Shown here piece by piece: positions 1 to 31,660 of a DNA stretch of 61,071 nucleotides (within the stretch, counting starts at the first letter, position 1; the number at the start of each line of letters is the position of its first letter). The translations under genes were made by a program, and so were the position numbers. A model generated the notes under the pieces. The model saw only the letters and a list, made by a program, of their open reading frames with translations. It was not told the DNA's origin and did no database searches. Source of the DNA: a virus (taxonomy: Duplodnaviria; Heunggongvirae; Uroviricota; Caudoviricetes); IMG/VR virus record IMGVR_UViG_2778261463_000006, positions 1-61,071 of that record; one strand, written 5' to 3'.

Positions 1-600
1 TTTCAGAAAAACCAGAAGAAGCTGGCGAGACTTCAGCGACAGTTAAGCCGCAAGGTCAAATTCAGCAACAACTGGCAGATGCAGAAACGCAAAATACAGC
101 GACTGCATTTTCGTATCGCAAACATCCGCAGAGACTACCTTCATAAAATCACAACGATCATCAGCAAAAACCACGCAATGATTGTCATTGAGGATTTGAA
201 GGTTAAATACATGTCAAAGTCAGCGGCGGGTACGATAAGTCAGCCGGGGCGCAATGTCCGGGCAAAATCAGGTTTAAACCGTTCGATACTGGATCAGGGC
301 TGGTATGAAATGCGCCGCCAGCTTGAGTACAAGCAGCTCTGGCGTGGCGGTCAGGTACTGGCAGTGCCGCCAGCGTACACAAGCCAGCGTTGCGCGTGCT
401 GTGGCCATACAGCGAAAGAAAACCGCCTGTCACAAAGTAAATTCGTGTGTCGGGATTGTGGATATACAGCGAACGCCGATGTAAACGGCGCTCGTAACAT
501 TTTAGCGGCGGGGCACGCCGTGCTTGCCTGTGGAGGGATGGTGCAGTCAGACCGCCCGTTGAAGCAGGAACCCTCCGAAATGATTCAGGCGACAGCCTGA
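1..600 (+). CDS. tnpB: IS200/IS605-family TnpB (OrfB) RNA-guided nuclease, C-terminal part; 5' end lies outside the window
   Basis: Frame is open from position 1; translation has TnpB-like basic region and C-terminal zinc-finger pattern CxxC...CxxC (QRCACCGH...CRDCGY) with RuvC-like tail; stop at 600. Confidence 0.8.
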
Positions 601-1005: not shown

Positions 1006-2921
1006 GCCGCTACCCCCGCTTTCTGGATTGCTACCAACAGATCAGCCAGGTGGCGAGCTGCGCCGTTAACCAGCTCTTCGTTTTCCTCAAAACGTCCGGC
1101 AGCCTGAAGGGCTGCAATCGCTTCCCGGACATTGCCCCGGGCGTTACGGATCTCCGCCATGTCAGTGCTTTGTATATCCATCACGTTATTGAGATATTCA
1201 ATGGCTTTATTAGCCTCTGCATCTGCTTCGCTAACCGTTTCATCAGGCTGTGCCGTGGCCGGTTCTGACTGAGTAATCTCACCGACTTCGGCCTGCAATG
1301 CATTGATCATGCTCTGCACCATTTTCTCGGTGCCAGCGCCCCCAGGAAACGCAATATTGGGGAAAGTTTTTTGAAACTGAGTTTTCAGCATTACGCGGAA
1401 CTCGTCTGGTGAGCTGGTGGCCAGCTCCAGAGCTTTTTGTGCATATTTGCCAAACGGACCATTAGTAAGTGTCTTCGCCAGGAAGTCGAAAGAATCCTCG
1501 CGAGGCAATAACTTCAGGTCGTACTCACTCATTTGCTGATCAGAAAGCGGGGTATCGTAAGTAGCAATGCCGTAGCGTGCATATTCATAATACGGGTCAC
1601 CTTCATCAGGGCGCGGCAGAATTGCTTTGTTACCTTCAGGTATTGCGCCAGGGGCCGCCGGACGCATTTGCAGGGCATATCGATATGCACCTACAGAGAC
1701 TTCTGGTTCAGGCGAAGAGCTACCGGTATCCTCCGCTGGTTCAGGTTCGACGTTTTCCGGTTTATGTTCTTCTGGTTGGACCAGGTATTCCGATACATTA
1801 CCCGCTTTATAGGCTTTAAACAGCTTGCCGATCGCATCTGCCATGTCCACACCCTGTATGGATTTAGCCTTGATCATGTATACGCTGCCATCCGGATCGG
1901 TTAACTGGATATACCCTTCGCCGCCCCCAATGAATTGCTTCATTGATGCACCATTACTGAGCGTCACTTCCCCGTCCATATGCATACGATTTTTGATACT
2001 GGCAAGGCGATCCGTCAGCGCGCGAGAGTGCCCACCAGTCATCCCCGCTGGAGCAATGGTATCGCGCCCACCAGTGCGATTGAGCTGTTCAATCTCCGTC
2101 TGCAAACGCTCATTCTCTTCATAAAGAGAATCCGCTTCCGATGCAACAGCGTTAATTTTCTGCTCCAGATCTGCCTTCTGCCCTTCTACCGCTGCCACCT
2201 GATCCGCGAGGTCGCTCATGGCATCCTCTTTCTGGTCACTGTCAGCCTGTAGTTGGGTTATTTCATCAACAAGGGCTTTTTTCTTCTTCTGCGCACGCTG
2301 GAATTTTGCCGAGTTTTTCTCTGCAAGGTTGGCAAGTTTCATGGTGACCTGCGCCAGCGTCATATCACGTCCACTCATCGGAGCAACGGTGTGAGTAACG
2401 TCTTTTTTATTCAGTAAGAACTGGAAAGCAACCAGCGTATCGCTATTGGTGATCCGGTTTTCCGCTGTCGGGCTATGAAACAGAATGCTGATAGTCTGAC
2501 CATCACTGAGCGGAATAATGGCTGGCAAGACCGGCAGCCCGTTAACGTTACGTGCCCGGCCAATTTCAGCGCCGCCGATCGCGCGCGCGCCGCTCTGGGC
2601 CACATCCCCCGTTTTATCACTCCCCGCAGAGATTCCGGTACCATTCAGCTTCTGGTTCAATGCCCGGACAAATGCCTGCATGGTCCGGTGTAACTGCAAA
2701 CGAGTAGAACTAATCGCCTCCAGTAAATCCGTAGCACACCAGTGGATCGGCGTGTCATAGAAGAACGTAGCCTCGATTTCCTCCAGGGTGTTGGATTCCG
2801 TCATCAGATAGCGGTCCTCACCGGCCATTAATGCGCGATATTCATCATCAGTCACTGGCGGGGGAAGCACGTCAAGCCCAGGCTTGATCGTCACCCCTTT
2901 ATTGATATTGAACTGTTCCAT
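1002..2921 (-). CDS. darA: DarA-like defence-against-restriction / capsid internal protein (639 aa)
   Basis: 639-aa ORF with coiled-coil-rich centre; shares motif NSAKFQ with upstream Hdf; position after lydA/lydB/hdf as in P1. Confidence 0.7.
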   Translation of the reverse strand: MEQFNINKGVTIKPGLDVLPPPVTDDEYRALMAGEDRYLMTESNTLEEIEATFFYDTPIHWCATDLLEAISSTRLQLHRTMQAFVRALNQKLNGTGISAGSDKTGDVAQSGARAIGGAEIGRARNVNGLPVLPAIIPLSDGQTISILFHSPTAENRITNSDTLVAFQFLLNKKDVTHTVAPMSGRDMTLAQVTMKLANLAEKNSAKFQRAQKKKKALVDEITQLQADSDQKEDAMSDLADQVAAVEGQKADLEQKINAVASEADSLYEENERLQTEIEQLNRTGGRDTIAPAGMTGGHSRALTDRLASIKNRMHMDGEVTLSNGASMKQFIGGGEGYIQLTDPDGSVYMIKAKSIQGVDMADAIGKLFKAYKAGNVSEYLVQPEEHKPENVEPEPAEDTGSSSPEPEVSVGAYRYALQMRPAAPGAIPEGNKAILPRPDEGDPYYEYARYGIATYDTPLSDQQMSEYDLKLLPREDSFDFLAKTLTNGPFGKYAQKALELATSSPDEFRVMLKTQFQKTFPNIAFPGGAGTEKMVQSMINALQAEVGEITQSEPATAQPDETVSEADAEANKAIEYLNNVMDIQSTDMAEIRNARGNVREAIAALQAAGRFEENEELVNGAARHLADLLVAIQKAGVAA

Positions 2922-2922
2922 G

Positions 2923-3534
2923 TTAATTTCCTGCTTTCAGTTGCTTAAGACGACGTTTGAGTTCGCCATTCCGTGCCTTTTCGTTATTGAGTCGGCCCGT
3001 CTCCTTATCCAGCTTCGCCCGCAAATCAGTGATCTGCTGTTGATTGAAAGACACCGAATTCTGCGCGGACTTATAAGCGGCAACCACCTGAGCATTCCGC
3101 TGTTTTGCTTCTTGCAGGCGCTGAAAGTTGGATTTAACTGCCGGTTTCTTGTCTACCGGATTGGCAACACGCTTCGCTTTGGCGATCAGTGATTTCTGGA
3201 ATTTTGCGGAGTTTTTACGGGCCGCCTGTCCCATGACGGTACCAAGCGTCTTGATATCCGGCGATTGAGCGTTAGGAATAGCTTTTCCATTCAGCCTCAC
3301 AGACGATATATCGCCAGTATCGTTTACCTGTATGGCAAGAATTTGTCCGTCGTTAAGAACCAGCTTTGCGGTTTTAACTTTAACGCCATCTTTCGTTGTT
3401 GCGCGGTTGCTTGAGTCAACCTCAATTACCGTAACACTGGTTTTATTGATCGCCGCGATAAGGGATTTCAGCCCCTTTTCATTAACCTGGTCAAAATCGA
3501 CCGTTGCATACTTATTTTTCGTCATCTGACACAT
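2923..3534 (-). CDS. hdf: Hdf (homolog of DarA fragment)
   Basis: 203 aa; segment AARKNSAKFQKS matches DarA segment AEKNSAKFQRAQ; lies directly upstream of darA. Confidence 0.65.
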   Translation of the reverse strand: MCQMTKNKYATVDFDQVNEKGLKSLIAAINKTSVTVIEVDSSNRATTKDGVKVKTAKLVLNDGQILAIQVNDTGDISSVRLNGKAIPNAQSPDIKTLGTVMGQAARKNSAKFQKSLIAKAKRVANPVDKKPAVKSNFQRLQEAKQRNAQVVAAYKSAQNSVSFNQQQITDLRAKLDKETGRLNNEKARNGELKRRLKQLKAGN

Positions 3535-3955
3535 CCTGTGCGAGATTTATTACGTAACTTCTGCGGATTTGCTGAGTAACAGGGAAAATCCGATACAACG
3601 GGTTAATGAACGAGTCGCCATGCGTAACCATGACGTTGAAATGCCACAGCCGTTCTCCTTTACCCATATATTCAGTGGGTATGTACAACCATTCACTGTT
3701 TTCGCCCTGTTCAGCCGACGTCAGACAACGTTGTTCGCCTTCAATCACTGTCGTCGGCTTCTGAACATCGCGGATCCAATATCTGACCGTTGCGCCGCGC
3801 AAAAACGGGAATTTAGACCGGTATTTGAACGGCACCCGGATGAAACCCGGTTTAATTTCCACATCACCAAGTTCTAAATGCGTGATGTCCTTGCGTTTTA
3901 GCAAATAGCGATCGGCTAAGGCTAACGCAAGAACGCATACACCCCAGCCAATCAT
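3512..3955 (-). CDS. lydB: LydB-like antiholin candidate (147 aa)
   Basis: ORF between holin-like gene and hdf; N-terminal hydrophobic segment; assignment by P1 synteny only. Confidence 0.45.
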   Translation of the reverse strand: MIGWGVCVLALALADRYLLKRKDITHLELGDVEIKPGFIRVPFKYRSKFPFLRGATVRYWIRDVQKPTTVIEGEQRCLTSAEQGENSEWLYIPTEYMGKGERLWHFNVMVTHGDSFINPLYRIFPVTQQIRRSYVINLAQDVSDDEK

Positions 3956-4281
3956 TTCCCGCCTCCCTTTTTCACCAAACTTGTAAGAACATTCAGAATG
4001 CTATCGATATTCACTCGTTTCATCCCTGAAATCACCTCATGACCGTTATTGCTGGCTATCGTTACCATTAAGTACGTAATTGATAACTCCCAGCCCTTGT
4101 GTTGCCCCAATAGGTACGCCACCGCGCCAGCTGTCACTGCAACAAAGATCTCCGTAACCAATCCCAACAAATTGCCAGACTGGCGACCGTCTCGGACATC
4201 CATCAGGAACGTGCCTATCCCACCAATTACTGAAAGCAGGAGCGCAATAGCAACTGGAGCTAATTCCTGTGTGTCAAGCAC
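3952..4281 (-). CDS. lydA: LydA-like holin (109 aa, about three transmembrane segments)
   Basis: Small protein with three hydrophobic helices and charged C-terminus; start overlaps next gene; P1 lydA position. Confidence 0.55.
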   Translation of the reverse strand: MLDTQELAPVAIALLLSVIGGIGTFLMDVRDGRQSGNLLGLVTEIFVAVTAGAVAYLLGQHKGWELSITYLMVTIASNNGHEVISGMKRVNIDSILNVLTSLVKKGGGK

Positions 4282-4355
4282 AAGTTCCCTCCTACGTTGT
4301 CAGGAGGTAATGGTATGCAAAGTAACTTCTCAACCGGTTATGTTGCATAAGAGAC

Positions 4356-4619
4356 TTACCTATTCAACCGACTTTTGGAACCTTCAATAATAAGCCTGCT
4401 ATTGGCGCTGAAAATAAGAACCATGCAGCTCTGAAGGCTTTCATTCATGTCCTTATATTCCGCGAGATACATGCCAATAAAGCCAGCAAGTACGGCGGAA
4501 ATACATTCGGCCAGCAATTTCTTGCATGAAGACTCGTAACGGTTTTCACATAGCCCACTCAAATACGAATACACCCCACCAAGAAGGGATAACATCACGA
4601 TATGTACATAAAATGTCAT
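4356..4619 (-). CDS. Small membrane protein (87 aa, two hydrophobic segments), possible holin-like
   Basis: ORF with two hydrophobic stretches; first gene of the leftward lyd/dar block. Confidence 0.45.
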   Translation of the reverse strand: MTFYVHIVMLSLLGGVYSYLSGLCENRYESSCKKLLAECISAVLAGFIGMYLAEYKDMNESLQSCMVLIFSANSRLIIEGSKSRLNR

Positions 4620-4746
4620 TTTTTACCTATACAACAGTAAGTTGAACAACATTTGAGAACGGTATGCACTTTGTGATTTCCACACACACTGGTTTTGTTA
4701 ATTAAAACCTGTAGCTTGCAATAAATAACGATAGTGGGCAGAAAAT

Positions 4747-4933
4747 ATGCTAATAGGCTATGTACGCATATAGACAAATGAACAAAACACAGCTATGCAG
4801 TGAAAAGCACTTGAAAGCGCAGGATGTGAGCTAATTTTTGCGAATAAGGCGAGCAGCAAAAAGGCTGGGCACCCTGGGTTAAAAAAGGTTCTGCGTATGC
4901 TTTCCAGAGGTGATACCCTAGTCTCGGACTAGG
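4747..4933 (+). pseudogene. Remnant of the N-terminus of a serine DNA invertase (frameshifted/stopped)
   Basis: ATG at 4747 encodes MLIGYVRI then stop; downstream frame reads AGCELIFANKASSKKAGHPGLKKVLRMLSRGDTLV, collinear with Cin residues 1-65; ends in a perfect palindrome 4916-4934. Confidence 0.6.
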
Positions 4934-5054
4934 GACAACATTTCGAGAACAGTTTTCATTAGCGGTCAGCAGGCGCTAGATACATCGAATTGATGTGCCG
5001 CGCGATAAATGTACCTATTCTATCAAGATAAATTACACCGACGCGGCATTAGAA

Positions 5055-5627
5055 TTACAGCTCAGATTGAGTTTGGCGCTTCTCTACAGGATGATAACGA
5101 TAAATCGTCGATACACCGATATCGTAAATAATTGCCAACTGTTTCCTGCTGTAGCCATTTTCGATCAACCTCGCTATTTGCTCATGTTGTTCTTTTGTCA
5201 ACTTCGGGCGACGTCCGCCAATGCGTCCTTGTGCGCGTGCTGCTGCCAGCCCGGCCAGTGTACGCTCTACAATTAATTCACGTTCCATTTCGGCTAAAGC
5301 TCCCATGACGTGAAAAAAGAAACGCCCCATGGGTGTTGATGTGTCAATGCTGTCCGTCAGACTACGGAAATTAACACCTTTTTCCCGCAATTCCTCAATA
5401 AGCGTGATCAGGTGTTTCATACTTCTGCCCAGTCTGTCCAGCTTCCAGACAACCAGCGTATCTCCTTCTGATAGCGTTCTGAGCAGTTTTTTCAATCCCG
5501 GTCTGGCTGATTTCGTTCCGCTGATTTTATCTTCAAAAATCAGTTCACATCCTGCGCACTCCAGCGCGTTACGCTGCAATTCTGTATTCTGGTCATTTGT
5601 TGATACGCGGACATAGCCAATAAGCAT
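5055..5627 (-). CDS. cin: Serine-recombinase DNA invertase (Cin/Gin/Hin/Pin family)
   Basis: 190 aa; catalytic N-terminus MLIGYVRVSTNDQ...VVWKLDRLGRS and C-terminal HTH; adjacent to invertible tail-fibre segment. Confidence 0.9.
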   Translation of the reverse strand: MLIGYVRVSTNDQNTELQRNALECAGCELIFEDKISGTKSARPGLKKLLRTLSEGDTLVVWKLDRLGRSMKHLITLIEELREKGVNFRSLTDSIDTSTPMGRFFFHVMGALAEMERELIVERTLAGLAAARAQGRIGGRRPKLTKEQHEQIARLIENGYSRKQLAIIYDIGVSTIYRYHPVEKRQTQSEL

Positions 5628-5682
5628 GATGGATCCCCTGAATAAAAACCGGGGATGATGCCAGTTAGCCGTAATCTCTGCA

Positions 5683-5708
5683 TTTTCTTAAACGTTGGTT
5701 TGGGAGAA
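5683..5708. other. cix-like 26-bp recombination site (left)
   Basis: TTTTCTTAAACG-TT-GGTTTGGGAGAA; inner half-site is the reverse complement of the inner half-site at 7568-7593; resembles hix/gix architecture. Confidence 0.6.
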
Positions 5709-6206
5709 GGCTCTGCATTACCGGTTGGTGTGCCTGTTCCGTGGCCTTCAGCCACTCCGCCAACAGGCTGGCTGAAATGCAACGGAGCAGCTTTTTCTGC
5801 TGAAGAATACCCGGAGCTGGCAAAGGCTTACCCGACAAATAAATTGCCTGATTTACGTGGTGAGTTTATTCGTGGCTGGGATGACGGACGTGGTATGGAT
5901 ACGGGGAGGGCAATATTATCCGCTCAGGGCGATGCCATACGTAATATCTATGGTGAGTTCAAGACTGTAAACACCGAAAATTATTCAATATGGGAATCAG
6001 TAGGCTCGTTTAAGGGGGCAGTAGTGCCTTTGAACCCCTCAACGAACAATAGTTATTTCTCCTTAATCAGAAGTATGGTGACAGAAAGAACAGATGGCGC
6101 TGTTTACCCAAAAGTGATTGGCCTTGATGCTTCAAGAATTGTTCCAACTGCAAACGAAAACCGTCCTCGTAACATTGCCTTTAATTATATCGTGAGGGCT
6201 GCCTGA
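5697..6206 (+). CDS. Alternative tail-fibre C-terminal segment Sv' (no own start; would fuse in frame to S constant part after inversion)
   Basis: Reading frame continues GLGE... across the crossover exactly as the S frame does at 7579; ORF-track start at 5655 is read-through of the cix site. Confidence 0.55.
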   Translation, partial: GLGEGSALPVGVPVPWPSATPPTGWLKCNGAAFSAEEYPELAKAYPTNKLPDLRGEFIRGWDDGRGMDTGRAILSAQGDAIRNIYGEFKTVNTENYSIWESVGSFKGAVVPLNPSTNNSYFSLIRSMVTERTDGAVYPKVIGLDASRIVPTANENRPRNIAFNYIVRAA

Positions 6207-6808
6207 TGAATAAAGCCGTATTAAATAACGAACTCATTGCCATAAAAGCGGGAGTCATTACCATTTATAATTATGATGGTGAAACGCGGGAATATATTTC
6301 CACATCAACTGAATATCTTGCGGTTGGCGTCGGTATCCCGGCATGTTCTTGTTTAGATGCACCAGTTACACATAAAGCTGGTTATGCAATCTGCCGTTCT
6401 GCAGATTTTAACTCATGGGAATATGTGCCAGACCATCGCGGTGAAATCATCTATAGCACCGAAACAGGAGAATCGAAAGAAATCACAGCTCCGGGTGATT
6501 ATCCTGAAAATACAACCACTATCGCCCCGTTAACGCCATACGATAAATGGGATGGTGAGAAATGGGTGACGGATACCGAGGCACAGCATAGCGCCGCAGT
6601 AGAAGCGGCAGAAGCACAGCGCCAGTCGCTGATTGATGCTGCAATGGCTTCCATCAGTCTGATTCAGCTGAAATTACAGGCCGGGCGGAAGCTGACGCAG
6701 CCAGAAAACACCCGACTTAACGCTGTGCTGGATTATATTGACGCGGTGACGGCAACAGATACCAGCACAGCGCCGGACGTCATCTGGCCTGAACTGCCGG
6801 AGGCGTAG
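6206..6808 (+). CDS. Tail fibre assembly protein U' (for Sv')
   Basis: 200 aa; C-terminus with Tfa hallmark ...DYIDAVTATDTSTAPDVIWPELPEA; start overlaps Sv' stop (TGATG). Confidence 0.75.
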   Translation: MNKAVLNNELIAIKAGVITIYNYDGETREYISTSTEYLAVGVGIPACSCLDAPVTHKAGYAICRSADFNSWEYVPDHRGEIIYSTETGESKEITAPGDYPENTTTIAPLTPYDKWDGEKWVTDTEAQHSAAVEAAEAQRQSLIDAAMASISLIQLKLQAGRKLTQPENTRLNAVLDYIDAVTATDTSTAPDVIWPELPEA

Positions 6809-7220
6809 GCCATTCAATATCTGGCGCACCGGAAGTATCGACCAGTTCCAGTGCGTCCAGATAATCCAGCCACAAATTATATTGCGCCAGTTCCTCACCT
6901 TTCAGGCGACCAATCGCCGCTTTACCAGGCCATTGCTTACTGTTTATGTATTCGTTGACCTGATTAATCAATTGCTGCTTTTCCAGTTCGGCTGCGGCAA
7001 TTTGTTCCTCATGAGTTGGCGGTGGAATATCAATCCATGCAGGCATTCCGTCGATGACACCTCTGTATTTTCCTTCTGGTGCTTCCTTCATAAATTCGGC
7101 GGCAACAGTGTCGTCAATTTCGATTCCATCACCGGGCCATTCGCCGGATTCCTGATAAGCGATTTTAAGCTCCACAGGGAAAAACGCATTTTTCTCGGCA
7201 CTGAAAATATATTTCTGCAT
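6780..7220 (-). CDS. Tail fibre assembly protein U
   Basis: 146 aa; Tfa-family C-terminus ...DYLDALELVDTSGAPDIEWPTPP; immediately downstream of S. Confidence 0.8.
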   Translation of the reverse strand: MQKYIFSAEKNAFFPVELKIAYQESGEWPGDGIEIDDTVAAEFMKEAPEGKYRGVIDGMPAWIDIPPPTHEEQIAAAELEKQQLINQVNEYINSKQWPGKAAIGRLKGEELAQYNLWLDYLDALELVDTSGAPDIEWPTPPAVQAR

Positions 7221-7222
7221 TT

Positions 7223-9019
7223 CTACCGTCCTATCGAAATATAACTGAATCTGTATTGCTGTGAGATATCACTGGTTGCCACACGCCACGCTGAATTACT
7301 GATATGTTCAAAATTTACAGACAAAACCTGCGGGGCAGGATTCGACGGGTCTGACTGAACGGCATCAGACATAACACTGACTGAAACCATCGGCTGATTA
7401 GGGAATGGTATAGGGAAGTGTCCACTGATAAAGCGGGTCGTGTTTCCTGAAAAAGTGCCAAACTGAACAATATATCCACCTGGTAGCCTGAACCATCCCG
7501 AACCAGAAGCGAATGCTCCCATATCCGGTATCTGATTATCTCCTGTGCCCACATCCCTTTTCGCCGCTTCTCCCAAACCAAGGTAATCAAGAACTCCCTG
7601 AGTGCTGGTTTTACCAAGAATGGCACGTCCAACACTTGTCAACGCGGTTAACGCGGCACGATCTGCCCCTGTAAAATATGGGAGTTTATCTGCTGATGTA
7701 GCAAGCTCCGCCAGCGCCGTCAGGGTGGCATCCTTCGGTTGCTTACCCGCAAGCGCGTTAGTCATGGTGGTCGCAAAATTCGGGTCATTGCCCAGCGCCG
7801 CAGCCAGTTCGTTCAGCGTGTTCAGTGCATCAGGTGACGAATCTACAAGTGCGGCAATCGCGGCCATAACGAAAGCCGTGCTTGCGATCTGGGTACTATT
7901 AGTCCCCTGTGGCGCTGTTGGTGTTGTTGGCGTTCCGGTCAGTGCCGGGCTGTTTAATGGTGCTTTCTTGTTCGTTTCATCCATTACCGCCTTAACAGCT
8001 TTTGGTGTCGCTGCCAGCGTTTCAGACGTGCTGTTCGTGGCGCTACTGAGCTGAGTGATGCCTTTCGCTGTCAATGAAGCTGTTGGCACACCAGTGATCT
8101 GATTCCAGGGATGTGTATGACTGGATGGTGCCTTTCCGGCTGCTAGATCGTATGCAGCTTTAACCGCTTTTGGAGTTGCAGCTAATGTTTCAGAAGTGCT
8201 GTTGGTGTCGCTACTGAGCTGAACTATCCCTTTTTGTGTCGTGGTTGCATCCTGGGCTGTATACTTCCCGTTAGCCAGGTCATATGCAGCCTTGACAGCT
8301 TTCGGTGTGGCGGCCAGCACTTCGGACGTGCTGTTAGTGGCACTACTGAGCTGAACTAATCCCTTTTGCGTTGTGCTTGCATCCTGCGCCGTATACTTGC
8401 TTTTCGCCAGATCGTAGGCTTTTTTAACTGCCAGCGAACTCGCAGCAACATCACTTCTGGTACTGGTTACAGAGTCTGAAATATCAATGCCGATCGTGCG
8501 GTTGATACGCTCGGATGTATCAATCATCTCTTGAGTAATGGTAGATACGCCAGCAGGGATATTCACCGTACAAACCAGCAGTTCCCCATCACCTAACTGA
8601 TATGAATCGGTATAGGTTCTGGCAACAAATTCAGCTGCATGAATATGTGACGCGGTATTCACCTGATAGGTATCTTCTCCAAGAAGGTATCTTCCCTTCA
8701 GCACAATTGCATATTTCTTGCCTGCGTTAAGTGCAAGAGAGATATCCTTACGATGCTGAATAGTTACCTGGTAGAATTCACCAATATCCACTGACGCCGC
8801 GCCAGCGGTTTTATCTCCATCCACTGAGGTGATTAACAGGTTCATCCCACCGCCAGGCTTAGGCAAGAAACCAGCATAAAATCCCGGGTCAACAATTCCC
8901 CTGAATTTTCGGTTTAGAGCGGCTGACAGATATGGTTCGTGGTATTGCACATCAGCCACCATAGCCAACGACTCGGGTGATGGGTAAGTAACCGATGTAA
9001 CAACTGTAACGTCATTCAT
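7223..9019 (-). CDS. Tail fibre protein S (constant part 7580-9019, variable C-terminal part Sv 7223-7579)
   Basis: Likely start MNDVTVV at 9019 (ORF track extends to 9106); internal fibre repeats KAVKAAYDLA...TQKG.VQLSS.TNSTSE.LAATP; cix site inside coding frame. Confidence 0.8.
   Translation of the reverse strand: MNDVTVVTSVTYPSPESLAMVADVQYHEPYLSAALNRKFRGIVDPGFYAGFLPKPGGGMNLLITSVDGDKTAGAASVDIGEFYQVTIQHRKDISLALNAGKKYAIVLKGRYLLGEDTYQVNTASHIHAAEFVARTYTDSYQLGDGELLVCTVNIPAGVSTITQEMIDTSERINRTIGIDISDSVTSTRSDVAASSLAVKKAYDLAKSKYTAQDASTTQKGLVQLSSATNSTSEVLAATPKAVKAAYDLANGKYTAQDATTTQKGIVQLSSDTNSTSETLAATPKAVKAAYDLAAGKAPSSHTHPWNQITGVPTASLTAKGITQLSSATNSTSETLAATPKAVKAVMDETNKKAPLNSPALTGTPTTPTAPQGTNSTQIASTAFVMAAIAALVDSSPDALNTLNELAAALGNDPNFATTMTNALAGKQPKDATLTALAELATSADKLPYFTGADRAALTALTSVGRAILGKTSTQGVLDYLGLGEAAKRDVGTGDNQIPDMGAFASGSGWFRLPGGYIVQFGTFSGNTTRFISGHFPIPFPNQPMVSVSVMSDAVQSDPSNPAPQVLSVNFEHISNSAWRVATSDISQQYRFSYISIGR
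7568..7593. other. cix-like 26-bp recombination site (right), inside S
   Basis: TTCTCCCAAACC-AA-GGTAATCAAGAA; matches hix/gix-type architecture; inner 12-bp half-site identical (reverse complement) to left site. Confidence 0.6.
8030..8420 (-). repeat. Three tandem ~120-bp repeats encoding tail-fibre repeat units (boundaries approximate)
   Basis: Near-identical DNA blocks ...gctactgagctga... at about 8040, 8205 and 8335; protein repeats of ~37 aa. Confidence 0.55.
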
Positions 9020-9030
9020 CAAGCATATCC

Positions 9031-9465
9031 TTATGCTGTAGTCGAGTTTATGGCCATAACTGCGGTATATGTTTTGCCCACATACAGCGAGTCTTCTTGG
9101 ACACAAATAATGGCGATTGGCTTATTCTCGTTATCCAGAACAACCAGAGTGTTGAATGGGTAGTTTTTCCCTTCCTGCAACTGACTTTGATCAAGGTCCA
9201 TTCGGACAGTAATTATCCCGCCTGAGTAGGTTGGGACGAGGTTGATGGTGCAAAATTGACTGGTCAGTTCTGCCAGATCGAAAGCCTTTGGCAGTTCTCC
9301 AATCTCATAAGTGCCATCTCCTTTCTTAGTAACCAGTGAACTGGTACCGAAAACGGCCTTGCTGATTAAAAATCGAGAGCCTTTGTTAATGGACGATTCA
9401 GCGCGCCGCTGATAGTAATAGTCCAACAACTGACTCTTATAGAGGTTTGTTGAGACGTCAGACAT
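9031..9465 (-). CDS. R-like tail-fibre-associated structural protein (144 aa)
   Basis: ORF directly upstream of S with tight spacing; assignment by P1 synteny. Confidence 0.45.
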   Translation of the reverse strand: MSDVSTNLYKSQLLDYYYQRRAESSINKGSRFLISKAVFGTSSLVTKKGDGTYEIGELPKAFDLAELTSQFCTINLVPTYSGGIITVRMDLDQSQLQEGKNYPFNTLVVLDNENKPIAIICVQEDSLYVGKTYTAVMAINSTTA

Positions 9466-9543
9466 GATTTTCCCTAATCAATGTTGTGAAGCCTCATTGT
9501 AAGATAAGTAACTTGTCACCCCGCCCTGCGGACGAGGTGATTG

Positions 9544-10383
9544 TCACGCATCGCTATCCAACAGCAAATCATCTGCGCGGGTGCGATCAAACGTAGGCGT
9601 TGCTTTCACAATAGTGCCGCCCGGCGTTGCAGTGATCGGGGCGTTAATCGACGTAACTTCAGTAAGCGAAGTTGTATCCGAAGTTTCAAACCAGCAGAAT
9701 GCTTTTTCGGTATCAGAAATCTCATTCAAAGTGATCATGTCGGCCTGTTCATTTACAACAACCGACAAATAGAGCGTAAGCCCATCAAACACTATATGCA
9801 GTGGCAGTAGAGGCTTTACGAACTGATTAAACTTTCTGAGAATTTCTTCTGTAATTGCGGACTGATCTATCGTTCCAGTAATACCCATTGTCCGGGCCAG
9901 GTCGTTTATGGGAATACTGATCATTCCTCTGGAAGTCAGAAACATCTCGCCGAATGTGCCGCCGGTGGTTTCCAGTGTGCTTTCTGGAATCAGGACCGTG
10001 CCATAGGGATGTCGTTCAAAGTCCACCGGAGCATATATGGGATCCCATAAAACCGATATACCGTTAAATTCGCGATAAATTGTCTGGTTTATAGGGCGTT
10101 CAGTACCCTTAAAATGGATCTCATCAAACCGCTGTTGTAACAACATCGGAACGGAAGATGAATTCGACGTTCTGATAGTAAAAAACTGGCCAAGTTCATT
10201 TGTCCTAGTCTCCAGATCCTCCTTGCTCATGGAGAAAATAGACTTCCGGTTGGTAATTCGCTCCAACCATGGGTCAACAAAGGTGTCCATCATTGACTGA
10301 ACCAAATCAGCCAATGATTTATAAAGCAATGACTTTTGCTTAGCTGATGTAAGCCGGTTATTAAACCAGGAACGTTGCATCAC
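9544..10383 (-). CDS. Baseplate/tail protein (P1 gp16-like, 279 aa)
   Basis: ORF in baseplate block, start overlaps upstream gene end; synteny only. Confidence 0.45.
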   Translation of the reverse strand: MMQRSWFNNRLTSAKQKSLLYKSLADLVQSMMDTFVDPWLERITNRKSIFSMSKEDLETRTNELGQFFTIRTSNSSSVPMLLQQRFDEIHFKGTERPINQTIYREFNGISVLWDPIYAPVDFERHPYGTVLIPESTLETTGGTFGEMFLTSRGMISIPINDLARTMGITGTIDQSAITEEILRKFNQFVKPLLPLHIVFDGLTLYLSVVVNEQADMITLNEISDTEKAFCWFETSDTTSLTEVTSINAPITATPGGTIVKATPTFDRTRADDLLLDSDA

Positions 10384-11813
10384 TCCTCCTCATACGAAAT
10401 ATTGAAGGTGGAGTTTTCTGTATCCAGATAAACGAAATCGTAAAAGCCGTTGGACTCATTCCACTCGACAAACTCCAGATAAAAGTCGCGGAAATAGCCC
10501 AGCGTTTCGATAAACGCCCAAACGTCTTTTTTCTTAATCAGGATGTACTTTCCGACGCGGTTCGGATCAAAGAAAGTTGAGTCGCGCCCAAATTTTTTTT
10601 CCAGTGCCGACTTCAGCTCATCGGTCACATTCTCAATGGTCAGGCTTGCCGATATCCGTCCGGTGATGGTTATCTTAAATGGTAGTTTTCTGACCTCTTT
10701 ATAAGAGAATTTCTTGTTCAGTTCATTCGGTACCTTCTTAAAGGCAGCCAGGATCATTTCTTCAAGCTCTGACTGACTTTTATTCGGATGCCATCCTGAA
10801 ATAAATATCTTATTGATATTCTGAACATTATAAGCACCATCTAATTTTTCTTGCTGACCCTCGCCCCATGCCTTTACCCAGGACAGTCCCGGGATGTTAC
10901 GCACCAGAAAATACGTATAGTCCCCGCCCCATACGACCTGATCATCATAGGCGAGGTAATATTGTGCACGGTTACGTGTGATCTCCGTTGTTTCGGCATC
11001 GGTACCTGTGGTTATAGGTGTCGTTGTCTTAACTGAAATCAAATTAGCTAAATTAGCCGCAGAATCGACAGGCGTCAGGTTTTGGCCAGCAACCAGGGTT
11101 ATATCGCCGTTGGTGCACCATACCTTAAGCGTAATTGTCGAGCCTTCTGGCGGTATTTGCCCAATTAGCCCATCGCCGAATCGAACCCCCAACTGCTCGG
11201 ATGGTTTATAAAACTCAACGTAGACCTGGCTTTTACTACCGGCTAACCGGAACATAGTGCTGGAAGACCACTGCGTGGTCTTACCATCGGTCGTCACGAA
11301 TACTTCCAGCTTATAGCAGACAGCAGTGAGAGCCTTTGATAACACGACTTCCAGAAATTCTTTGGCTGCCGTAACGGTATATGTCACCTCCTGGATTTCC
11401 AACTGTGCCACTTCTACCGTACCGGTGCCGTCAACCAACCTGCATACATCCATAGTCATGTAAGGGTACTGGTCGTCAGATATTAAAGGCGTGTTTTTGG
11501 GGATTACCGCTGGAGCATCTTCACTTGTGGCTGTGATCTCAACCATCCCGGATGACGGTGTTGGCTTGGTACCAACGTAACTATTCGTTTCTGCCGCTGC
11601 CAGGATAGAGGAACGCCGCGTCGCGGTCGATATAAAGCCTTCAGCCAGCGCCGCATCGGCATACTGAAAGCACCTGTAGACAATCTGGGTAATAAACAAT
11701 GTCAGCATCGAGACAAATTGAGAGCCGACAAACTTCGACCAGAATGAATCTTTCTCGACAAGCTCTTCAAACTCTGCACGAATACTGTCTTTAGTCGGTG
11801 TTGTTTTACTCAT
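10380..11813 (-). CDS. Baseplate protein (BplA-like, 477 aa)
   Basis: Large ORF between gp25-like wedge gene and gp16-like gene; synteny with P1 bplA. Confidence 0.5.
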   Translation of the reverse strand: MSKTTPTKDSIRAEFEELVEKDSFWSKFVGSQFVSMLTLFITQIVYRCFQYADAALAEGFISTATRRSSILAAAETNSYVGTKPTPSSGMVEITATSEDAPAVIPKNTPLISDDQYPYMTMDVCRLVDGTGTVEVAQLEIQEVTYTVTAAKEFLEVVLSKALTAVCYKLEVFVTTDGKTTQWSSSTMFRLAGSKSQVYVEFYKPSEQLGVRFGDGLIGQIPPEGSTITLKVWCTNGDITLVAGQNLTPVDSAANLANLISVKTTTPITTGTDAETTEITRNRAQYYLAYDDQVVWGGDYTYFLVRNIPGLSWVKAWGEGQQEKLDGAYNVQNINKIFISGWHPNKSQSELEEMILAAFKKVPNELNKKFSYKEVRKLPFKITITGRISASLTIENVTDELKSALEKKFGRDSTFFDPNRVGKYILIKKKDVWAFIETLGYFRDFYLEFVEWNESNGFYDFVYLDTENSTFNISYEEE

Positions 11814-12169
11814 AGCACCACGTCCTGTGTGATAGTTATGTCCCTGATACGAATGGATATTTTCAACTTATCAAAAGCATCTCCCTCGGCTACTGACAAG
11901 CCAGAAATCGGTATGTCAGGTAAATCTACCGTCAGTTTTTGCAACAGCATTGCCTCAACCGCAATTTGAACATGCGACAAGTTGGTCGGTTCGTGTTTAA
12001 ACTGCGGTAAAACATTGCCCCAAGACGGATCTCCGTATACCTCACCCTGATAAGTGTTTAGCCACTCATATAAACGAGCGCCCCAGGCCTCCTCCTGGGA
12101 CTCATACGTTTTTACGCCGGATAACTCCAGCGTCAGTAAAGGATCAATTTCATTATTGTTGGCCATCAA
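11810..12169 (-). CDS. gp25-like baseplate wedge protein (PmgA-like, 119 aa)
   Basis: Size and sequence character of GPW/gp25 family; sits immediately downstream of sit. Confidence 0.5.
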   Translation of the reverse strand: MMANNNEIDPLLTLELSGVKTYESQEEAWGARLYEWLNTYQGEVYGDPSWGNVLPQFKHEPTNLSHVQIAVEAMLLQKLTVDLPDIPISGLSVAEGDAFDKLKISIRIRDITITQDVVL

Positions 12170-15100
12170 TCAACTCTCGCGTAGTCATTCATCAACGGAT
12201 CATCAATTGACAGTGGTACCGTGCGCATAACGCCCGGCTGAGGCGTGCTGACCTTTACGACAGTTCCCTGGCCTTTCGCCGAGTCTTTGGTGTGCTCTTC
12301 AATCCTGGCAAGCAATGAGGTCATCTGCGCAAACAGCCGCTTCGTTTCACCATCAAGTGAAACGGTATTATCAGCCAACTGCATTGTCGGCTTGGCACCG
12401 GAACCGCCAAGGTCACTAATAACCTGCCCGTCTATCTGCATACGACCGGTTGGTTGCTGCAAATCGTTGGCGGCAGTCGTCACCTGGGACGTGGAGGCTG
12501 GTTCAGGCGCATTATTTTTCCGCATCCCCGGCGAGTTGCGGAGTTTATCGAATAGTCCATCAATCCCCATTTGTGCGCCGAGATGGTCAAAGTAACTTGA
12601 GTTGTTGGCCACCGGACGCGCCTCTTCAACTGGCATCGGGGTATCAACATACACATTGCCAGCTGCTGTTGCGGTCCCCTTCCCTCGTGCACGTTCTTCG
12701 AGCGTTCCCTGAACGACTTCCCGACGCATCCCCCGGCCATTCATGAATTTGTTGACCAGATCGTTAACGCCAACAGCATTGCCAATTTTGTCTACCAGAC
12801 CGCCTTTCTCAAACGGGCTATCACCAGGGGTAAACGCCAGGCCAGTAGACTGATCGATAACAGCGTTATCAGGCAGTGGTCCCCTCACTCCATATTGCGC
12901 CCCACCCTGTGCTCCTGCTCCAGGTGTATAGATTTCACCACCTAAATAGCGAGCACGATGAGTATTGACCTTGATCGCGTACTCACGGTTTTCTTTCGAT
13001 AAGTCACCTGTGCCTTTTTTCCACTTATTGATAGTGCCAAACCCAGCATTATATGCAGTGATGGCCTCGTTTAAGTCTCCATTGGCTTGCTTCAGATATT
13101 TGCTCATGAGAAGAGCCGCAGCTTCTGCCGATTTCACAGGATCAAACGATTCACCTTCAGCTAAGCCAGTCTCTTCACGAGCAATCCCCGTGAACTGAAA
13201 CATCCCCAGAGCACCGGTTTGGGATTTTGCATACGGATTACCACCAGATTCAGTTGCAGCAATCGCGTAAAGAGTGCCTTCTGGAAGACCGTATTTATTC
13301 TCTAGTTCGGCAAAATACGGAGCCAACTTATCGAGATTTGCCTTGCCTTCAGCGCCAAGACTTCCGACTTTTACATCCAAGTTGCCATTGTTGTAGGTAT
13401 CCGCAGCTTTCTGAATGTCATTCCTGGTGCCAGTGGTATTAAACGACGATGATGACGAGCTATTTTGACCAATAGCTTTATCAATTTTCTGCAACGCGCT
13501 ATTGCCCGTTTCTACGGCATTTGCATTGATAATCTGATTGGCAGTTTGTTTTACTGTTTTATTGCTATCTTTCGCCGTGTCAAGTGCCGCATTTATCACG
13601 CGGGTAGCAATATTACTCTGTTTGGCATCGGATTCAGTTTTAGAATTAGACGTCTCCTGGTGGCTATTAACCGGAGCTTTTAACTCTGGAGTGATTTCTT
13701 TCGCATTAGCCTCGCCGATTGGATTGGGTATTTTTGATACAATCATTGCCGCAGGGGTATTTTTAACGGCATCAACCGCTGCATCTAATGCTTTACCTGG
13801 TAAATTTTTAACCCCATCCCAAATATTACCAGCCGCCTCTTTAATGTGTTTCCCAGGGTTCTTAATGAAATCAATTGCACTATCAATTGCATCACTGAAA
13901 ACCTGTTTCAGGTTATCGACAGTAAAGAAGTCTTTGATGGCATCCAGCTTTTCAAGCAGCTTATTAGATGTATCGCTAAACCATGCTGAAACAGCATCAC
14001 CAATCTTTGCTGTGTAATCATCGAACTTGGTAGAAATGGTGTCGCCAAGGTTAGCAATATATGTTTCTAAGTTGGTAATCCCACTATCAATGGCCTGGGC
14101 AATACTTTCCGTCGAAAATGATTGCAACATATTGCCGATATCCTCAAATCCAAGTGATTTGAGAACCTCACCAATGGCGCTGCTAATACCAGATACCAGT
14201 CCCCCCATATCAAGAACATTAGCTAACGTATAAGCGGCTTTTTGCTGGAATGATGGATCTTGTCCTGATTTAAGCCCAAACGCTCGACGTTGCGCTTCTG
14301 TATCATTCCAACCGGTTACCGCATCATAAATACCTCCAGCCACTGTGCCGACTAGGGGAATTGCGCGTAACGCCCCTTTACCAACTGCCTTTAATCCAAG
14401 TTTACCTGCTGCCCGGGCAGCCAAATCTCCGCCTTCATGGGCGAGAGTCTTCTTGCCACCACCGCGTAGCATTCCTACAAGTTTCTTTGCCCCCAGAGCG
14501 CCAAAAGCGAGTGCTCCAGCTTTTTTCAGCATGCCACGCCCCATTAACAACGACGCGACGCCACCGGCCCCCTTCCCTAACAGGCTAAATAGTTTGGACA
14601 GCAAGCCGCCCTTCTTTTTCCCGGTGTTTTTGGCTATCTGATCAAGGGCGCTGAGAATCTTGTCATTGCCCTCTTTAATTTCGCTGGTCTGCTCCTGAAG
14701 TTCCTGAACCGTCCGTTTTTGGGTGTTAACCTGAACGACATCGGCACTATTTTGCGATTTACGCCTAAAAAAACCTTTTCTACGGCTGTTATCGTCATTG
14801 CCACGAATCACATCGGCAATAGACTTTCTGGCACCATTAAGCGATCCACCAACTTCTTTTGATATCCCGCCAAGCTCCTTCCCTGCTGCCCACAATGGAC
14901 CAGCAACGGCATAACCTAACGCATCGACGGCACGAGTTTCTGAAGGGTTACCTATGCCTTCAGCTACTTTTGACAGTTTTTTTAATAAACCTGATTCAGC
15001 ATTTAGACGCTCATCATCCTCTTTGCGCCTGGCCTTTTCAGCACGTTCAGCACGGGCATCTTCCGCTGCGGCCTTACTCCCTGACTTTCCAATAAAACGA

Positions 15101-15558
15101 CCACGCGCATCGCGTTGGTTTTGGCTTTTTTGCGCACCGCCTTTTTGACCGAACATTTCGCGAGCGTGTTCAGCTGCTTCGGTTCGTTGCGCCTTTACAT
15201 CTTCTGTTATAGCCTTCTTGCGTCGTTTTTTACCCTTTCGCGTAGTTGATTTGGCCTGCGGTTCCTGTAGAGCAACATCCTCCTGAACTACACGAGAAAC
15301 GTCCCCTAAATTAAGCCGTTTCATTGCCTCAACAATAGGGTCCACTGATGGCGCATTGGCCACAAAGTCTGGCCGGGAATTTTCGATTGTGCGATTTAAT
15401 GCCGACACACTGCGAGAGACAGGATCAACAGTTGCAACGCGCCCCCCTTTCAAATCTTCAACAGCTTCCCGGATACCAGCAAGCTCTTCCAGCTCTTTTG
15501 CGCTGGCGGTTTCAACTGTCCTTATAACATCGTCAATGTTGGCGTTTTTTCTTTCCAT
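12166..15558 (-). CDS. sit: Sit-like structural injection transglycosylase / tape-measure-like protein (1130 aa)
   Basis: Soluble lytic transglycosylase motif ...AIAATESGGNPYAKSQTGALGMFQF...; Gly/Lys-rich and coiled-coil regions; size matches P1 Sit. Confidence 0.8.
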   Translation of the reverse strand: MERKNANIDDVIRTVETASAKELEELAGIREAVEDLKGGRVATVDPVSRSVSALNRTIENSRPDFVANAPSVDPIVEAMKRLNLGDVSRVVQEDVALQEPQAKSTTRKGKKRRKKAITEDVKAQRTEAAEHAREMFGQKGGAQKSQNQRDARGRFIGKSGSKAAAEDARAERAEKARRKEDDERLNAESGLLKKLSKVAEGIGNPSETRAVDALGYAVAGPLWAAGKELGGISKEVGGSLNGARKSIADVIRGNDDNSRRKGFFRRKSQNSADVVQVNTQKRTVQELQEQTSEIKEGNDKILSALDQIAKNTGKKKGGLLSKLFSLLGKGAGGVASLLMGRGMLKKAGALAFGALGAKKLVGMLRGGGKKTLAHEGGDLAARAAGKLGLKAVGKGALRAIPLVGTVAGGIYDAVTGWNDTEAQRRAFGLKSGQDPSFQQKAAYTLANVLDMGGLVSGISSAIGEVLKSLGFEDIGNMLQSFSTESIAQAIDSGITNLETYIANLGDTISTKFDDYTAKIGDAVSAWFSDTSNKLLEKLDAIKDFFTVDNLKQVFSDAIDSAIDFIKNPGKHIKEAAGNIWDGVKNLPGKALDAAVDAVKNTPAAMIVSKIPNPIGEANAKEITPELKAPVNSHQETSNSKTESDAKQSNIATRVINAALDTAKDSNKTVKQTANQIINANAVETGNSALQKIDKAIGQNSSSSSSFNTTGTRNDIQKAADTYNNGNLDVKVGSLGAEGKANLDKLAPYFAELENKYGLPEGTLYAIAATESGGNPYAKSQTGALGMFQFTGIAREETGLAEGESFDPVKSAEAAALLMSKYLKQANGDLNEAITAYNAGFGTINKWKKGTGDLSKENREYAIKVNTHRARYLGGEIYTPGAGAQGGAQYGVRGPLPDNAVIDQSTGLAFTPGDSPFEKGGLVDKIGNAVGVNDLVNKFMNGRGMRREVVQGTLEERARGKGTATAAGNVYVDTPMPVEEARPVANNSSYFDHLGAQMGIDGLFDKLRNSPGMRKNNAPEPASTSQVTTAANDLQQPTGRMQIDGQVISDLGGSGAKPTMQLADNTVSLDGETKRLFAQMTSLLARIEEHTKDSAKGQGTVVKVSTPQPGVMRTVPLSIDDPLMNDYARVD

Positions 15559-31653: not shown

Positions 31654-31660
31654 ATCAGTG

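What the first reader, a model, noticed from the sequence alone, without database searches (positions are those of the whole stretch)
4747..4934. Decayed second invertase N-terminus next to cin, ending in a perfect palindrome
The plus strand opposite cin retains the first ~65 codons of a Cin-like invertase, broken by a stop after codon 8 and ending at 4931-4933. It terminates in the palindrome CCCTAGTC-TCG-GACTAGGG (4916-4934). In Hin/Gin/Cin genes the recombinational enhancer lies in the 5' coding region, so this remnant could retain an enhancer or mark an ancestral duplication or rearrangement at the switch.
Basis: seen in the sequence. Interest (0 to 1): 0.45.

Follow-up and report, generated by a model that had tools for sequence, protein, structure and literature searches.

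The report
Dead cin stub beside Min invertase
This is the decaying first third of the phage-P1 invertase gene cin, left behind when a P1-like plasmid swapped its tail-fibre switch for a different, oppositely oriented one; the same scar is in plasmid p15B, so it is ordinary.

Summary
Window 4658-4923 (+) is 89.9% identical to the phage P1 cin promoter region plus cin nt 1-177, which include the annotated enhancer. The similarity stops abruptly at 4923, the end of the left arm of the palindrome.

The stub is the resident cin, not a copy of its neighbour. It is 89% identical to P1 cin but only 67% identical to the adjacent intact invertase (5055-5627, minus strand). That gene is a different, Min-type invertase.

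P1 homology is lost from 4924 to 8272. A foreign 3.35 kb module sits there: invertase, a 1.86 kb invertible segment and the variable part of the tail-fibre gene.

The P1 GenBank annotation records the same arrangement in plasmid p15B, collinear with the window at the two mapped stretches.

The stub is dead:
- The catalytic Ser9 codon is TAG and codon 19 is TGA.
- Its 15 lineage-private substitutions are spread evenly over codon positions.
- Nine of them fall in the enhancer homolog.
- Candidate -10 hexamers are damaged.

The palindrome is imperfect in 12 of 22 relatives and has no T-run.

At least eight cin stub lengths (52-307 nt) occur in P1/D6-like plasmids.

Verdict: a known rearrangement scar, of low interest.

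The parts
4356..4619 (-). lydC (holin-like). This is the last P1-backbone gene to the left of the scar.
   Evidence: ORF list. It is collinear with P1 lydC and annotated LydC in phage vB_EcoM-813R1.
4658..4746 (+). Relic of the cin promoter and leader region, homologous to the predicted P1cin promoter and Shine-Dalgarno of P1. Both candidate -10 hexamers are altered: TAAAAT to TAAAAC, and TATAAA to AATAAA. There is also a 1-nt deletion in the spacer.
   Evidence: Alignment with P1 31570-31659, P1 feature table. The consensus scan finds no promoter-like site on the + strand here.
4747..4923 (+). Pseudo-cin: cin codons 1-59. The catalytic Ser9 codon is changed to TAG (4771-4773) and Arg19 to TGA (4801-4803).
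   Evidence: It is 89.3% identical to P1 cin nt 1-177. There are 15 private substitutions at codon positions 5/4/6.
4765..4836 (+). Homolog of the annotated P1 cin recombinational enhancer (P1 31678-31749). Its distal part is mutated (4768, 4772, 4773). The block at 4810-4840 is intact.
   Evidence: P1 annotation; substitution list; multi-remnant alignment.
4916..4934 (.). The 8-3-8 palindrome that straddles the homology breakpoint at 4923/4924. The left arm is cin codons 57-59. The right arm is junction or filler sequence.
   Evidence: Right arm is imperfect (GGCTAGGG) in 12 of 22 relatives. No T-run, and not called as a terminator. RNA hairpin z-score is -3.2 on the + strand and -2.1 on the - strand.
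4924..5054 (.). 3' flank of the incoming invertase module; origin unknown. Positions 4935-4953 (ACAACATTTCGAGAACAGT) are a direct repeat of 4646-4663 (ACAACATTTGAGAACGGT), which lies upstream of the cin promoter relic.
   Evidence: No P1 homology. Found only in P1-like plasmids of the window type and the pGA_Eco1 type.
5055..5627 (-). Intact 190-aa serine DNA invertase of Min type, in the opposite orientation to P1 cin. Its own enhancer homolog lies at 5538-5609.
   Evidence: ORF. Pfam Resolvase plus HTH_7. 76% amino-acid identity to P1 Cin. About 80% nucleotide identity to P2/P88-like phage invertases.
5685..5710 (.). Crossover site proximal to the invertase: TTCTTAAACG TT GGTTTGGGAGAA.
   Evidence: Resembles P1 cixL.
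7565..7590 (.). Partner crossover site in inverted orientation, inside the tail-fibre gene. It delimits a 1.86 kb invertible segment.
   Evidence: Inverted repeat I3, 18 nt at 94% complementarity.
8273..8273 (.). Point where P1 homology resumes (constant part of tail-fibre gene S). This is the right boundary of the replaced module.
   Evidence: blastn of the window against P1. The P1 annotation places the p15B/P1 homology boundary at about the same place, P1 37152.

Best explanation
The segment is a pseudogene stub of the resident P1-type cin gene (promoter region plus codons 1-59). It was left when an ancestor of this P1-like phage-plasmid replaced the 3' two-thirds of cin, the C segment and the variable part of tail-fibre gene S. 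The replacement was a foreign tail-fibre switch whose invertase (Min type) points the other way.

The incoming invertase is antiparallel to cin, so the two genes could not pair for homologous recombination. The left joint therefore had to be illegitimate. It could fall anywhere in the now dispensable cin, but not further left, where lydC and its control region lie. The right joint lies in the conserved part of S.

Since then the stub has drifted neutrally. It has no coding function and probably no enhancer or promoter function. The palindrome is a by-product of the joint or of a later internal deletion, not a working element.

Shown: the homology boundaries, the decay pattern, the identity of architecture with p15B, and the recurrence of such stubs.

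Inferred: the order of events, the illegitimate nature of the left joint, and the lack of function.
For: - Window 2168-4923 is 95% identical to P1 and 8273-15148 is 96% identical. The stretch 4924-8272 has only weak similarity (68-76%) to P1.
- The break lies exactly at cin nt 177.
- The stub is 89.3% identical to P1 cin and includes 89 nt of upstream region. It is only 67% identical to the neighbouring invertase.
- The P1 GenBank record notes that P1 31570-31832 is 89% identical to p15B X62121 nt 7147-7408. It separately notes that the cin enhancer matches p15B nt 6463-6533.
- Both p15B stretches map onto the window with one and the same offset (p15B position = 12066 minus window position). 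The stub-to-min spacing is therefore identical.
- P1 37152-38867 matches p15B nt 1-1712, which places the right boundary at about the same point in S (P1 37152, against 37095 for the window).
- Decay: the catalytic Ser9 codon is TAG and codon 19 is TGA. The 15 private substitutions are spread 5/4/6 over codon positions, and 11 are non-synonymous or stops.
- By contrast, 14 of 17 private substitutions in intact cin of P1, P7 and D6 are at third positions.
- Stubs with other end points occur at cin nt 52, 117, 198, about 212-217, 234, 236 and 307. They sit next to different right-hand modules: a reversed pin in SJ46, an acetyltransferase, or no invertase at all.
- The junction is frequent. It is present in 160 of 5426 complete E. 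coli genomes and in 147-161 PLSDB plasmids, depending on the query, at 98% identity or more.
Against: - No experiment or transcript data bear on function.
- A 31-nt block (cin nt 64-94, containing the proximal Fis-site homolog) is unchanged in the window stub and in the pGA_Eco1 stub family, which decayed almost entirely separately from it (one shared derived site), although substitutions flank it closely. This could hint at constraint. However, an even longer unchanged stretch (nt 126-173) exists in the same stub, so it is not significant.
- The exact coincidence of a perfect palindrome with the breakpoint is unlikely by chance (roughly 1e-3 by my own rough estimate). It needs a mechanistic explanation that I can only guess at.
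- Two different cin alleles, truncated at nt 177 and nt 307, are joined to the same end of the min flank. A single simple event does not explain this.
- The p15B sequence itself (X62121) and the 1991 paper could not be read here.
Confidence: 0.9

Rival explanations
1. The stub still works as a second recombinational enhancer, or at least as a Fis-binding site, that assists inversion by the neighbouring invertase in cis.
For: It contains the full-length homolog of the annotated P1 enhancer. The proximal half, cin nt 64-94 with GCGCAGGATGTGAGC, is unchanged in the window stub and the pGA_Eco1 family, and carries one change each in the SJ46 and E. fergusonii stubs. Enhancers of this family act at a distance and in either orientation (established knowledge of the Hin/Gin/Cin systems).
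Against: Nine of the 15 private substitutions lie in the enhancer homolog. G22A, C26A and A27G hit the stretch that aligns with the distal Fis site of Hin, including its outer G (the Hin site positions are from memory). Enhancer function needs two Fis dimers. The intact invertase has its own unmutated enhancer homolog 0.7 kb away. Stubs as short as 52 and 117 nt, and plasmids with a stub but no invertase at all, also exist. The conserved block is not statistically exceptional.
Confidence: 0.06
2. The stub has been co-opted as a regulatory spacer. In one version the old cin promoter makes an RNA antisense to the 3' end of the invertase gene. In another, the palindrome hairpin insulates the lysis genes lydC-lydA from read-through out of the invertase gene, which now points at them.
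For: The invertase gene and lydC are now co-directional, with only this 435-bp interval between them. The hairpin is more stable than shuffled controls, with z = -3.2 and -2.1. The A-to-G variant in relatives keeps a U-G pair in the + strand RNA.
Against: No T/U tract follows the hairpin on either strand, and the scan does not call it a terminator. No promoter-like site is found on the + strand, and both candidate -10 hexamers have lost conserved bases. On the - strand RNA, which is the read-through direction, the variant gives a C-A mismatch. There is no Rfam match.
Confidence: 0.04
3. The stub is a local inverted partial duplication of the neighbouring invertase gene, or a chance resemblance.
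For: The stub and the 5' end of the neighbour form a 101-nt inverted repeat at 76% complementarity.
Against: The stub is 89% identical to P1 cin and continues into the P1 cin upstream region, against 67% identity to the neighbour over 177 nt. The E-value is 6e-92.
Confidence: 0.01

Closest known systems
The truncated invertase 5' region next to min in plasmid p15B of E. coli 15T- (GenBank X62121; Sandmeier et al. 1991, Nucleic Acids Res 19:5831)
   Same: Same backbone order: lydA, lydC, stub, reversed invertase, invertible tail-fibre segment, S. The identity to P1 is the same (89%, one gap). The extent agrees to within 4 nt: P1 31570-31832 in the annotation against 31570-31836 here. The spacing to the invertase's enhancer is identical to the nucleotide, as deduced from coordinates in the P1 GenBank annotation.
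   Different: The window has a single 1.86 kb invertible segment with two crossover sites. From memory, p15B has a 3.5 kb region with six. Among relatives the invertase gene is mosaic, at 89-98% identity. I could not read X62121 or the paper. My recollection that its abstract mentions a truncated invertase 5' region next to min is unverified.
Intact cin of phages P1, P7 and D6
   Same: Same position relative to lydC (lydA in D6, which lacks lydC) and same orientation. The promoter region matches that of P1 only; the P7 and D6 matches begin at the coding region. Over nt 1-177 the identity is 84-89%.
   Different: Truncated after codon 59, with two stop codons and the catalytic serine lost. There is no C-terminal DNA-binding domain and no adjacent cixL.
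Other cin stubs in P1/D6-like plasmids (SJ46, pHNCF11W-130kb, pEC21Z083-80K, pC5104, pGA_Eco1, CP021537, pEc1079_2, CP062884)
   Same: All keep the cin 5' end next to the lysis genes and lose the rest to a replaced tail-fibre region.
   Different: The break points differ (nt 52 to 307), as do the right-hand partners. pGA_Eco1 is a D6-type allele joined to the same min flank as the window, but at nt 307. Its nt 1-177 are 90% identical to D6, while nt 178-307 are only about 70% identical to any cin.

Membership tests
Serine DNA invertase gene (Hin/Gin/Cin/Pin/Min family) | Resolvase-type N-terminal catalytic domain | tested here: inconclusive
   The conceptual translation matches Pfam PF00239 positions 2-68 of 145 only (E = 2.8e-9). 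Homologous in origin, but less than half the domain is present.
Serine DNA invertase gene (Hin/Gin/Cin/Pin/Min family) | Catalytic serine near the N-terminus (Ser9 in Cin/Gin; established knowledge) | tested here: not met
   Codon 9 is TAG, against TCA in every intact cin compared.
Serine DNA invertase gene (Hin/Gin/Cin/Pin/Min family) | Uninterrupted ORF of about 185-190 aa with a C-terminal helix-turn-helix | tested here: not met
   Stops at codons 9 and 19. Homology ends at codon 59. No HTH_7 domain. The neighbour at 5055-5627 meets all of these.
Recombinational enhancer (sis) of the Hin/Gin/Cin systems | Position in the 5' coding part of the invertase gene, homologous to an experimentally defined enhancer | tested here: met
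   Window 4765-4836 aligns without gaps to the annotated P1 enhancer at 31678-31749.
Recombinational enhancer (sis) of the Hin/Gin/Cin systems | Two intact Fis-binding sites about 48 bp apart | tested here: inconclusive
   The proximal-site homolog is unchanged. The distal-site homolog has 3 private substitutions, including the outer G. The site positions are inferred from Hin from memory, and no Fis matrix was available.
Recombinational enhancer (sis) of the Hin/Gin/Cin systems | Stimulates inversion in cis in a Fis-dependent way | not testable with these tools
   Needs an inversion assay.
p15B-type pseudo-cin/min arrangement | cin 5' fragment between lydC and an oppositely oriented invertase, with P1 homology resuming in S | tested here: met
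   The p15B coordinates in the P1 annotation are collinear with the window at a constant offset.
Intrinsic terminator | G+C-rich hairpin followed by a T-run | tested here: not met
   The hairpin is present, but there is no T-run and the scan does not report it.
Invertase crossover site (cix/gix/hix/mix) | Two 12-bp half-sites ending in AAACC around a 2-bp core | tested here: not met
   Neither the palindrome nor the 19-nt repeat at 4646-4663 / 4935-4953 has the AAACC..GGTTT core. The strict AAACSWWSGTTT core occurs only at 5690-5701, inside the site at 5685-5710; the partner site at 7565-7590 was found as its inverted repeat.

The most novel reading that the evidence does not exclude
The stub is not inert. 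It persists because it gives the Min-type tail-fibre module a left-hand homology arm, which lets the module move between P1/D6-like plasmids that carry intact cin. This would explain why proximal stub sequence looks recently refreshed while distal sequence is much older. The stub may also keep one working Fis site (cin nt 64-94), which is unchanged in the window stub and the pGA_Eco1 family and carries one change each in the SJ46 and E. fergusonii stubs.
Probability: 0.12. Interest if true: 0.35.

Novelty: already known. Interest (0 to 1): 0.15.

Why it matters
It matters little beyond annotation. It shows that the intact gene here should be called a Min-type invertase rather than cin. It also shows that the host-range switch of this plasmid lineage was acquired as a cassette.

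The one modestly useful by-product is the catalogue of cin stubs with at least eight different end points. The stubs show mosaic ages along their length. They could serve as markers to reconstruct how often, and by what joints, P1-like phage-plasmids exchange tail-fibre modules.

Tried and rejected
- **Quasi-crossover site at the joint.** I tested whether the junction palindrome or the 19-nt direct repeat (4646-4663 and 4935-4953) is a quasi-cix/mix site, which would imply an invertase-made joint. This was rejected: the AAACC..GGTTT core is absent, and the strict core pattern AAACSWWSGTTT occurs only at 5690-5701; the partner site at 7565-7590 was found as its inverted repeat.
- **Relatives lacking the stub.** I looked for relatives that carry the min flank without the stub, as possible donors or a 'B-type' ancestor. 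None was found in phages, PLSDB or 5426 E. coli genomes. Chromosomal prophages match only window 4988-5050.
- **Shared origin with pGA_Eco1.** I tested whether the window and pGA_Eco1 stubs share a truncated ancestor. Only 1 derived site is shared, against 14 and 13 private ones, so the result is inconclusive. The steep rise in decay distal to nt 177 in pGA_Eco1 suggests an old stub whose proximal part was later replaced by recombination.
- **Late promoter or C1 operator in the repeat.** The only similarity is to LPdar, at 4623-4645 on the minus strand. The P7 Op(lydC) region is not homologous.
- **Known RNA families.** An Rfam search of 4282-5700 found nothing relevant.
- **Constraint within the lineage.** This was uninformative, because the 22 relatives are 99.8% identical in the stub.
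- **Literature.** The 2004 P1 genome paper and the 1991 p15B paper are not held. Full-text searches found only general mentions of altered or truncated cin in P1-like plasmids (PMC6906374).

Full report
**Context.** The window is a P1-like phage-plasmid. Its left end runs darA (1002-2921), hdf (2923-3534), lydB, lydA and lydC (4356-4619), all on the minus strand. This order is collinear with phage P1. The finding lies in the 435-bp interval between lydC and an intact 190-aa serine invertase gene at 5055-5627 on the minus strand.

**Checking the observation.**
- The frame starting at 4747 reads MLIGYVRI*TNEQNTAMQ*KALESAGCELIFANKASSKKAGHPGLKKVLRMLSRGDTLVSD*. The palindrome CCCTAGTC-TCG-GACTAGGG is at 4916-4934.
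- Megablast against phage records shows window 4658-4923 is 89.9% identical (E = 6e-92) to P1 31570-31836.
- That P1 stretch carries the predicted P1cin promoter, the Shine-Dalgarno sequence, the first 177 nt of cin and the annotated recombinational enhancer at 31678-31749.
- The conceptual translation matches the first half of the Pfam Resolvase domain.
- The observation therefore holds, with corrections. There are two internal stops (codons 9 and 19). Homology covers 59 codons plus 89 nt upstream. The closing stop is at 4930-4932.

**Where the homology ends.** A pairwise alignment with P1 shows near-continuous identity up to ...GGTGATACCCT(A/G)GTC. After window 4923 there is no similarity at all. 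That position is exactly the last base of the left arm of the palindrome.
- blastn of the first 16 kb of the window against P1 gives 95% identity for 2168-4923 and 96% for 8273-15148.
- In between there are only weak matches. The intact invertase is 70% identical to cin in the reverse orientation, and repeats in the tail-fibre gene give 68-76%.
- So a 3.35 kb segment (4924-8272) replaces P1 31837-37094, which holds the 3' two-thirds of cin, the C segment and the variable part of S.
- The replacement carries the reversed invertase and two inverted crossover sites, at about 5685-5710 and 7565-7590. These bound a 1.86 kb invertible segment with tail-fibre tips and assembly genes.

**Which gene is which.** The stub is 89.3% identical to P1 cin over 177 nt but only 67% identical to its neighbour. 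It also carries P1's cin upstream region. It is therefore the resident cin, not a copy of the neighbour. The neighbour is 76% identical to Cin in protein. It is about 80% identical in DNA to invertases of P2/P88-like prophages. Like Mu gin, its 5' end abuts the invertible segment and it is co-directional with S and U. P1 cin, by contrast, converges on them.

**Already described.**
- The P1 GenBank record notes that P1 31570-31832 is '89 pct identical (1 gap) to region of plasmid p15B genome at nt 7147..7408' of X62121.
- It separately notes that the cin enhancer matches p15B nt 6463-6533, and that lydC and lydA match p15B nt 7483-7638 and 7728-8294.
- It also notes that P1 37152-38867 matches p15B nt 1-1712.
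- Converting these coordinates gives the same offset for the stub and for the enhancer of the intact invertase: p15B position = 12066 minus window position. The architecture and spacing are therefore identical to p15B, whose invertase is Min.
- From memory, the abstract of Sandmeier et al. 1991 (NAR 19:5831) mentions a truncated 5' region of an invertase gene next to min. The paper is not held, so I could not verify this.
- A 2019 survey of P1-like plasmids also reports reversed Min-like invertases and partial cin ORFs (PMC6906374).

**Is it functional?**
- *Coding.* No. The catalytic Ser9 codon is TAG and codon 19 is TGA.
- *Decay pattern.* Compared with five other cin 5' ends, the window stub has 15 private substitutions in 177 nt. 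They are spread 5/4/6 over codon positions, and 11 change the amino acid or create stops. Intact cin of P1, P7 and D6 have 14 of 17 private changes at third positions. This is the signature of neutral decay.
- *Enhancer.* Nine of the 15 changes lie in the 72-bp enhancer homolog. G22A, C26A and A27G fall in the stretch that aligns with the distal Fis site of Hin, including the outer G that matters most for Fis binding. The site positions and the Fis rules are from memory. The proximal half (nt 64-94) is untouched here and in the pGA_Eco1 stub family, which shares only one derived site with it. An even longer untouched stretch (nt 126-173) exists in the same stub, so this is not significant. The intact invertase also has a complete enhancer homolog of its own at 5538-5609.
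- *Promoter.* The predicted -10 TAAAAT has become TAAAAC. The alternative TATAAA has become AATAAA. The spacer has lost a base. The consensus scan finds no + strand promoter.
- *RNA.* There is no Rfam match.

**The palindrome.**
- It folds better than shuffled controls, with z = -3.2 on the + strand and -2.1 on the - strand. It has no T-run and is not called a terminator.
- Among 22 related copies (21 IMG/VR contigs plus phage 813R1), 12 have GGCTAGGG in the right arm, with no compensating change.
- Perfect 8-bp hairpins are common in this window: about 20 distinct loci, against a mean of 6.1 counted hits in shuffles (34 hits in the window, nested ones included).
- What is unusual is that its centre coincides with the homology break. 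By my rough count this has a probability of about 1e-3 for a random joint.
- The simplest reading is that the right arm is templated filler, copied in inverted orientation from the adjacent cin sequence when the joint, or a later deletion, was sealed. This is inference only.
- The private G174A change in the left arm is synonymous, so it could predate the joint.

**Relatives.**
- The exact junction occurs in 147-161 PLSDB plasmids, depending on the query, and in 160 of 5426 complete E. coli genomes, always on P1-like plasmids. It also occurs in phages vB_EcoM-813R1 and 673R5.
- Within this lineage the stub and flank are 99-100% identical, while the invertase gene varies from 89% to 98%. The invertase gene is thus itself a recombination mosaic.
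- Other P1/D6-like plasmids carry cin stubs that end at nt 52, 117, 198, about 212-217, 234, 236 and 307. Their right-hand partners differ: a reversed pin in SJ46, an acetyltransferase in an E. fergusonii plasmid, or a tail-fibre gene with no invertase at all.
- I found no case of the min flank without a stub.
- This recurrence fits a survivorship argument. A left joint can land anywhere in the dispensable cin, but not in lydC or its control region.

**Unresolved detail.**
- pGA_Eco1 has a D6-type stub that ends at nt 307. It is joined to the same end of the same min flank as in the window. The flank is 81% identical, and its homology begins at about 4930-4937.
- The two stubs share only one derived site.
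- pGA_Eco1's nt 1-177 are 90% identical to D6, while its nt 178-307 are only about 70% identical to any cin.
- pC5104 and pEC21Z083 show the same pattern: a fresh proximal part and an old distal part.
- A consistent model has three steps. First, one old joint formed near cin nt 310-325. Second, the proximal stub was repeatedly replaced through homologous recombination with intact cin genes of co-resident plasmids. Third, a later internal deletion (nt 178 to about 310) in the window's lineage created the palindromic joint.
- I cannot prove this model. The 19-nt direct repeat (4646-4663 and 4935-4953) that brackets the stub also remains unexplained.

**Verdict.** This is a real but ordinary rearrangement scar. 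It is the pseudo-cin stub of the p15B-type arrangement, already recorded in the P1 annotation and, to my recollection, in the 1991 p15B paper. It very probably has no function.

Noticed in passing
window 79-600 (+): This 173-aa ORF matches the C-terminal parts of TnpB/OrfB_IS605 and the Cas12f1-like TNB domain. It looks like a truncated or window-cut IS200/IS605-family element next to darA, which P1 does not have at this position.
   Followed up: partly
window 4646-4663 and 4935-4953: A 19-nt direct repeat, ACAACATTTGAGAACGGT and ACAACATTTCGAGAACAGT, brackets the P1-homologous stub. The left copy overlaps the homolog of P1's predicted P2cin -10. It is not a crossover-site look-alike. Its meaning is unknown; it may be a remnant of a donor lydC-proximal region or a duplication at the joint.
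   Followed up: partly
window 5055-5627 versus loci L002 and L010-L030: Among 22 close relatives the intact invertase gene is only 89-98% identical to the window's copy. lydA, lydC, the stub and the flank are 99-100% identical. The invertase gene therefore appears to be exchanged by recombination independently of its surroundings.
   Followed up: no
L003, L004, L005, L007, L031-L034 (P1/D6-like plasmids): cin 5' stubs occur with at least eight different end points (nt 52-307). Several plasmids (CP021537, pEc1079_2) keep a stub but have no invertase at all, so their tail-fibre configuration is presumably fixed. In pGA_Eco1, pC5104 and pEC21Z083 the proximal part of the stub is much less decayed than the distal part.
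   Followed up: partly
window 4310-4328 (-): This 19-nt sequence, AAGTTACTTTGCATACCAT, is identical to the annotated P1 late promoter LPdar (-22 box and -10) upstream of lydA. A weaker look-alike, AACTTACTG...TATAGG, lies upstream of lydC at about 4623-4645 on the minus strand.
   Followed up: no
L007 799-1023 (phage SJ46): The SJ46 cin stub is annotated in GenBank as a 74-aa 'DNA invertase' CDS, although it is a truncated and frameshifted relic next to a reversed pin gene. This is an annotation artefact, and such artefacts are likely to be common in P1-like records.
   Followed up: no
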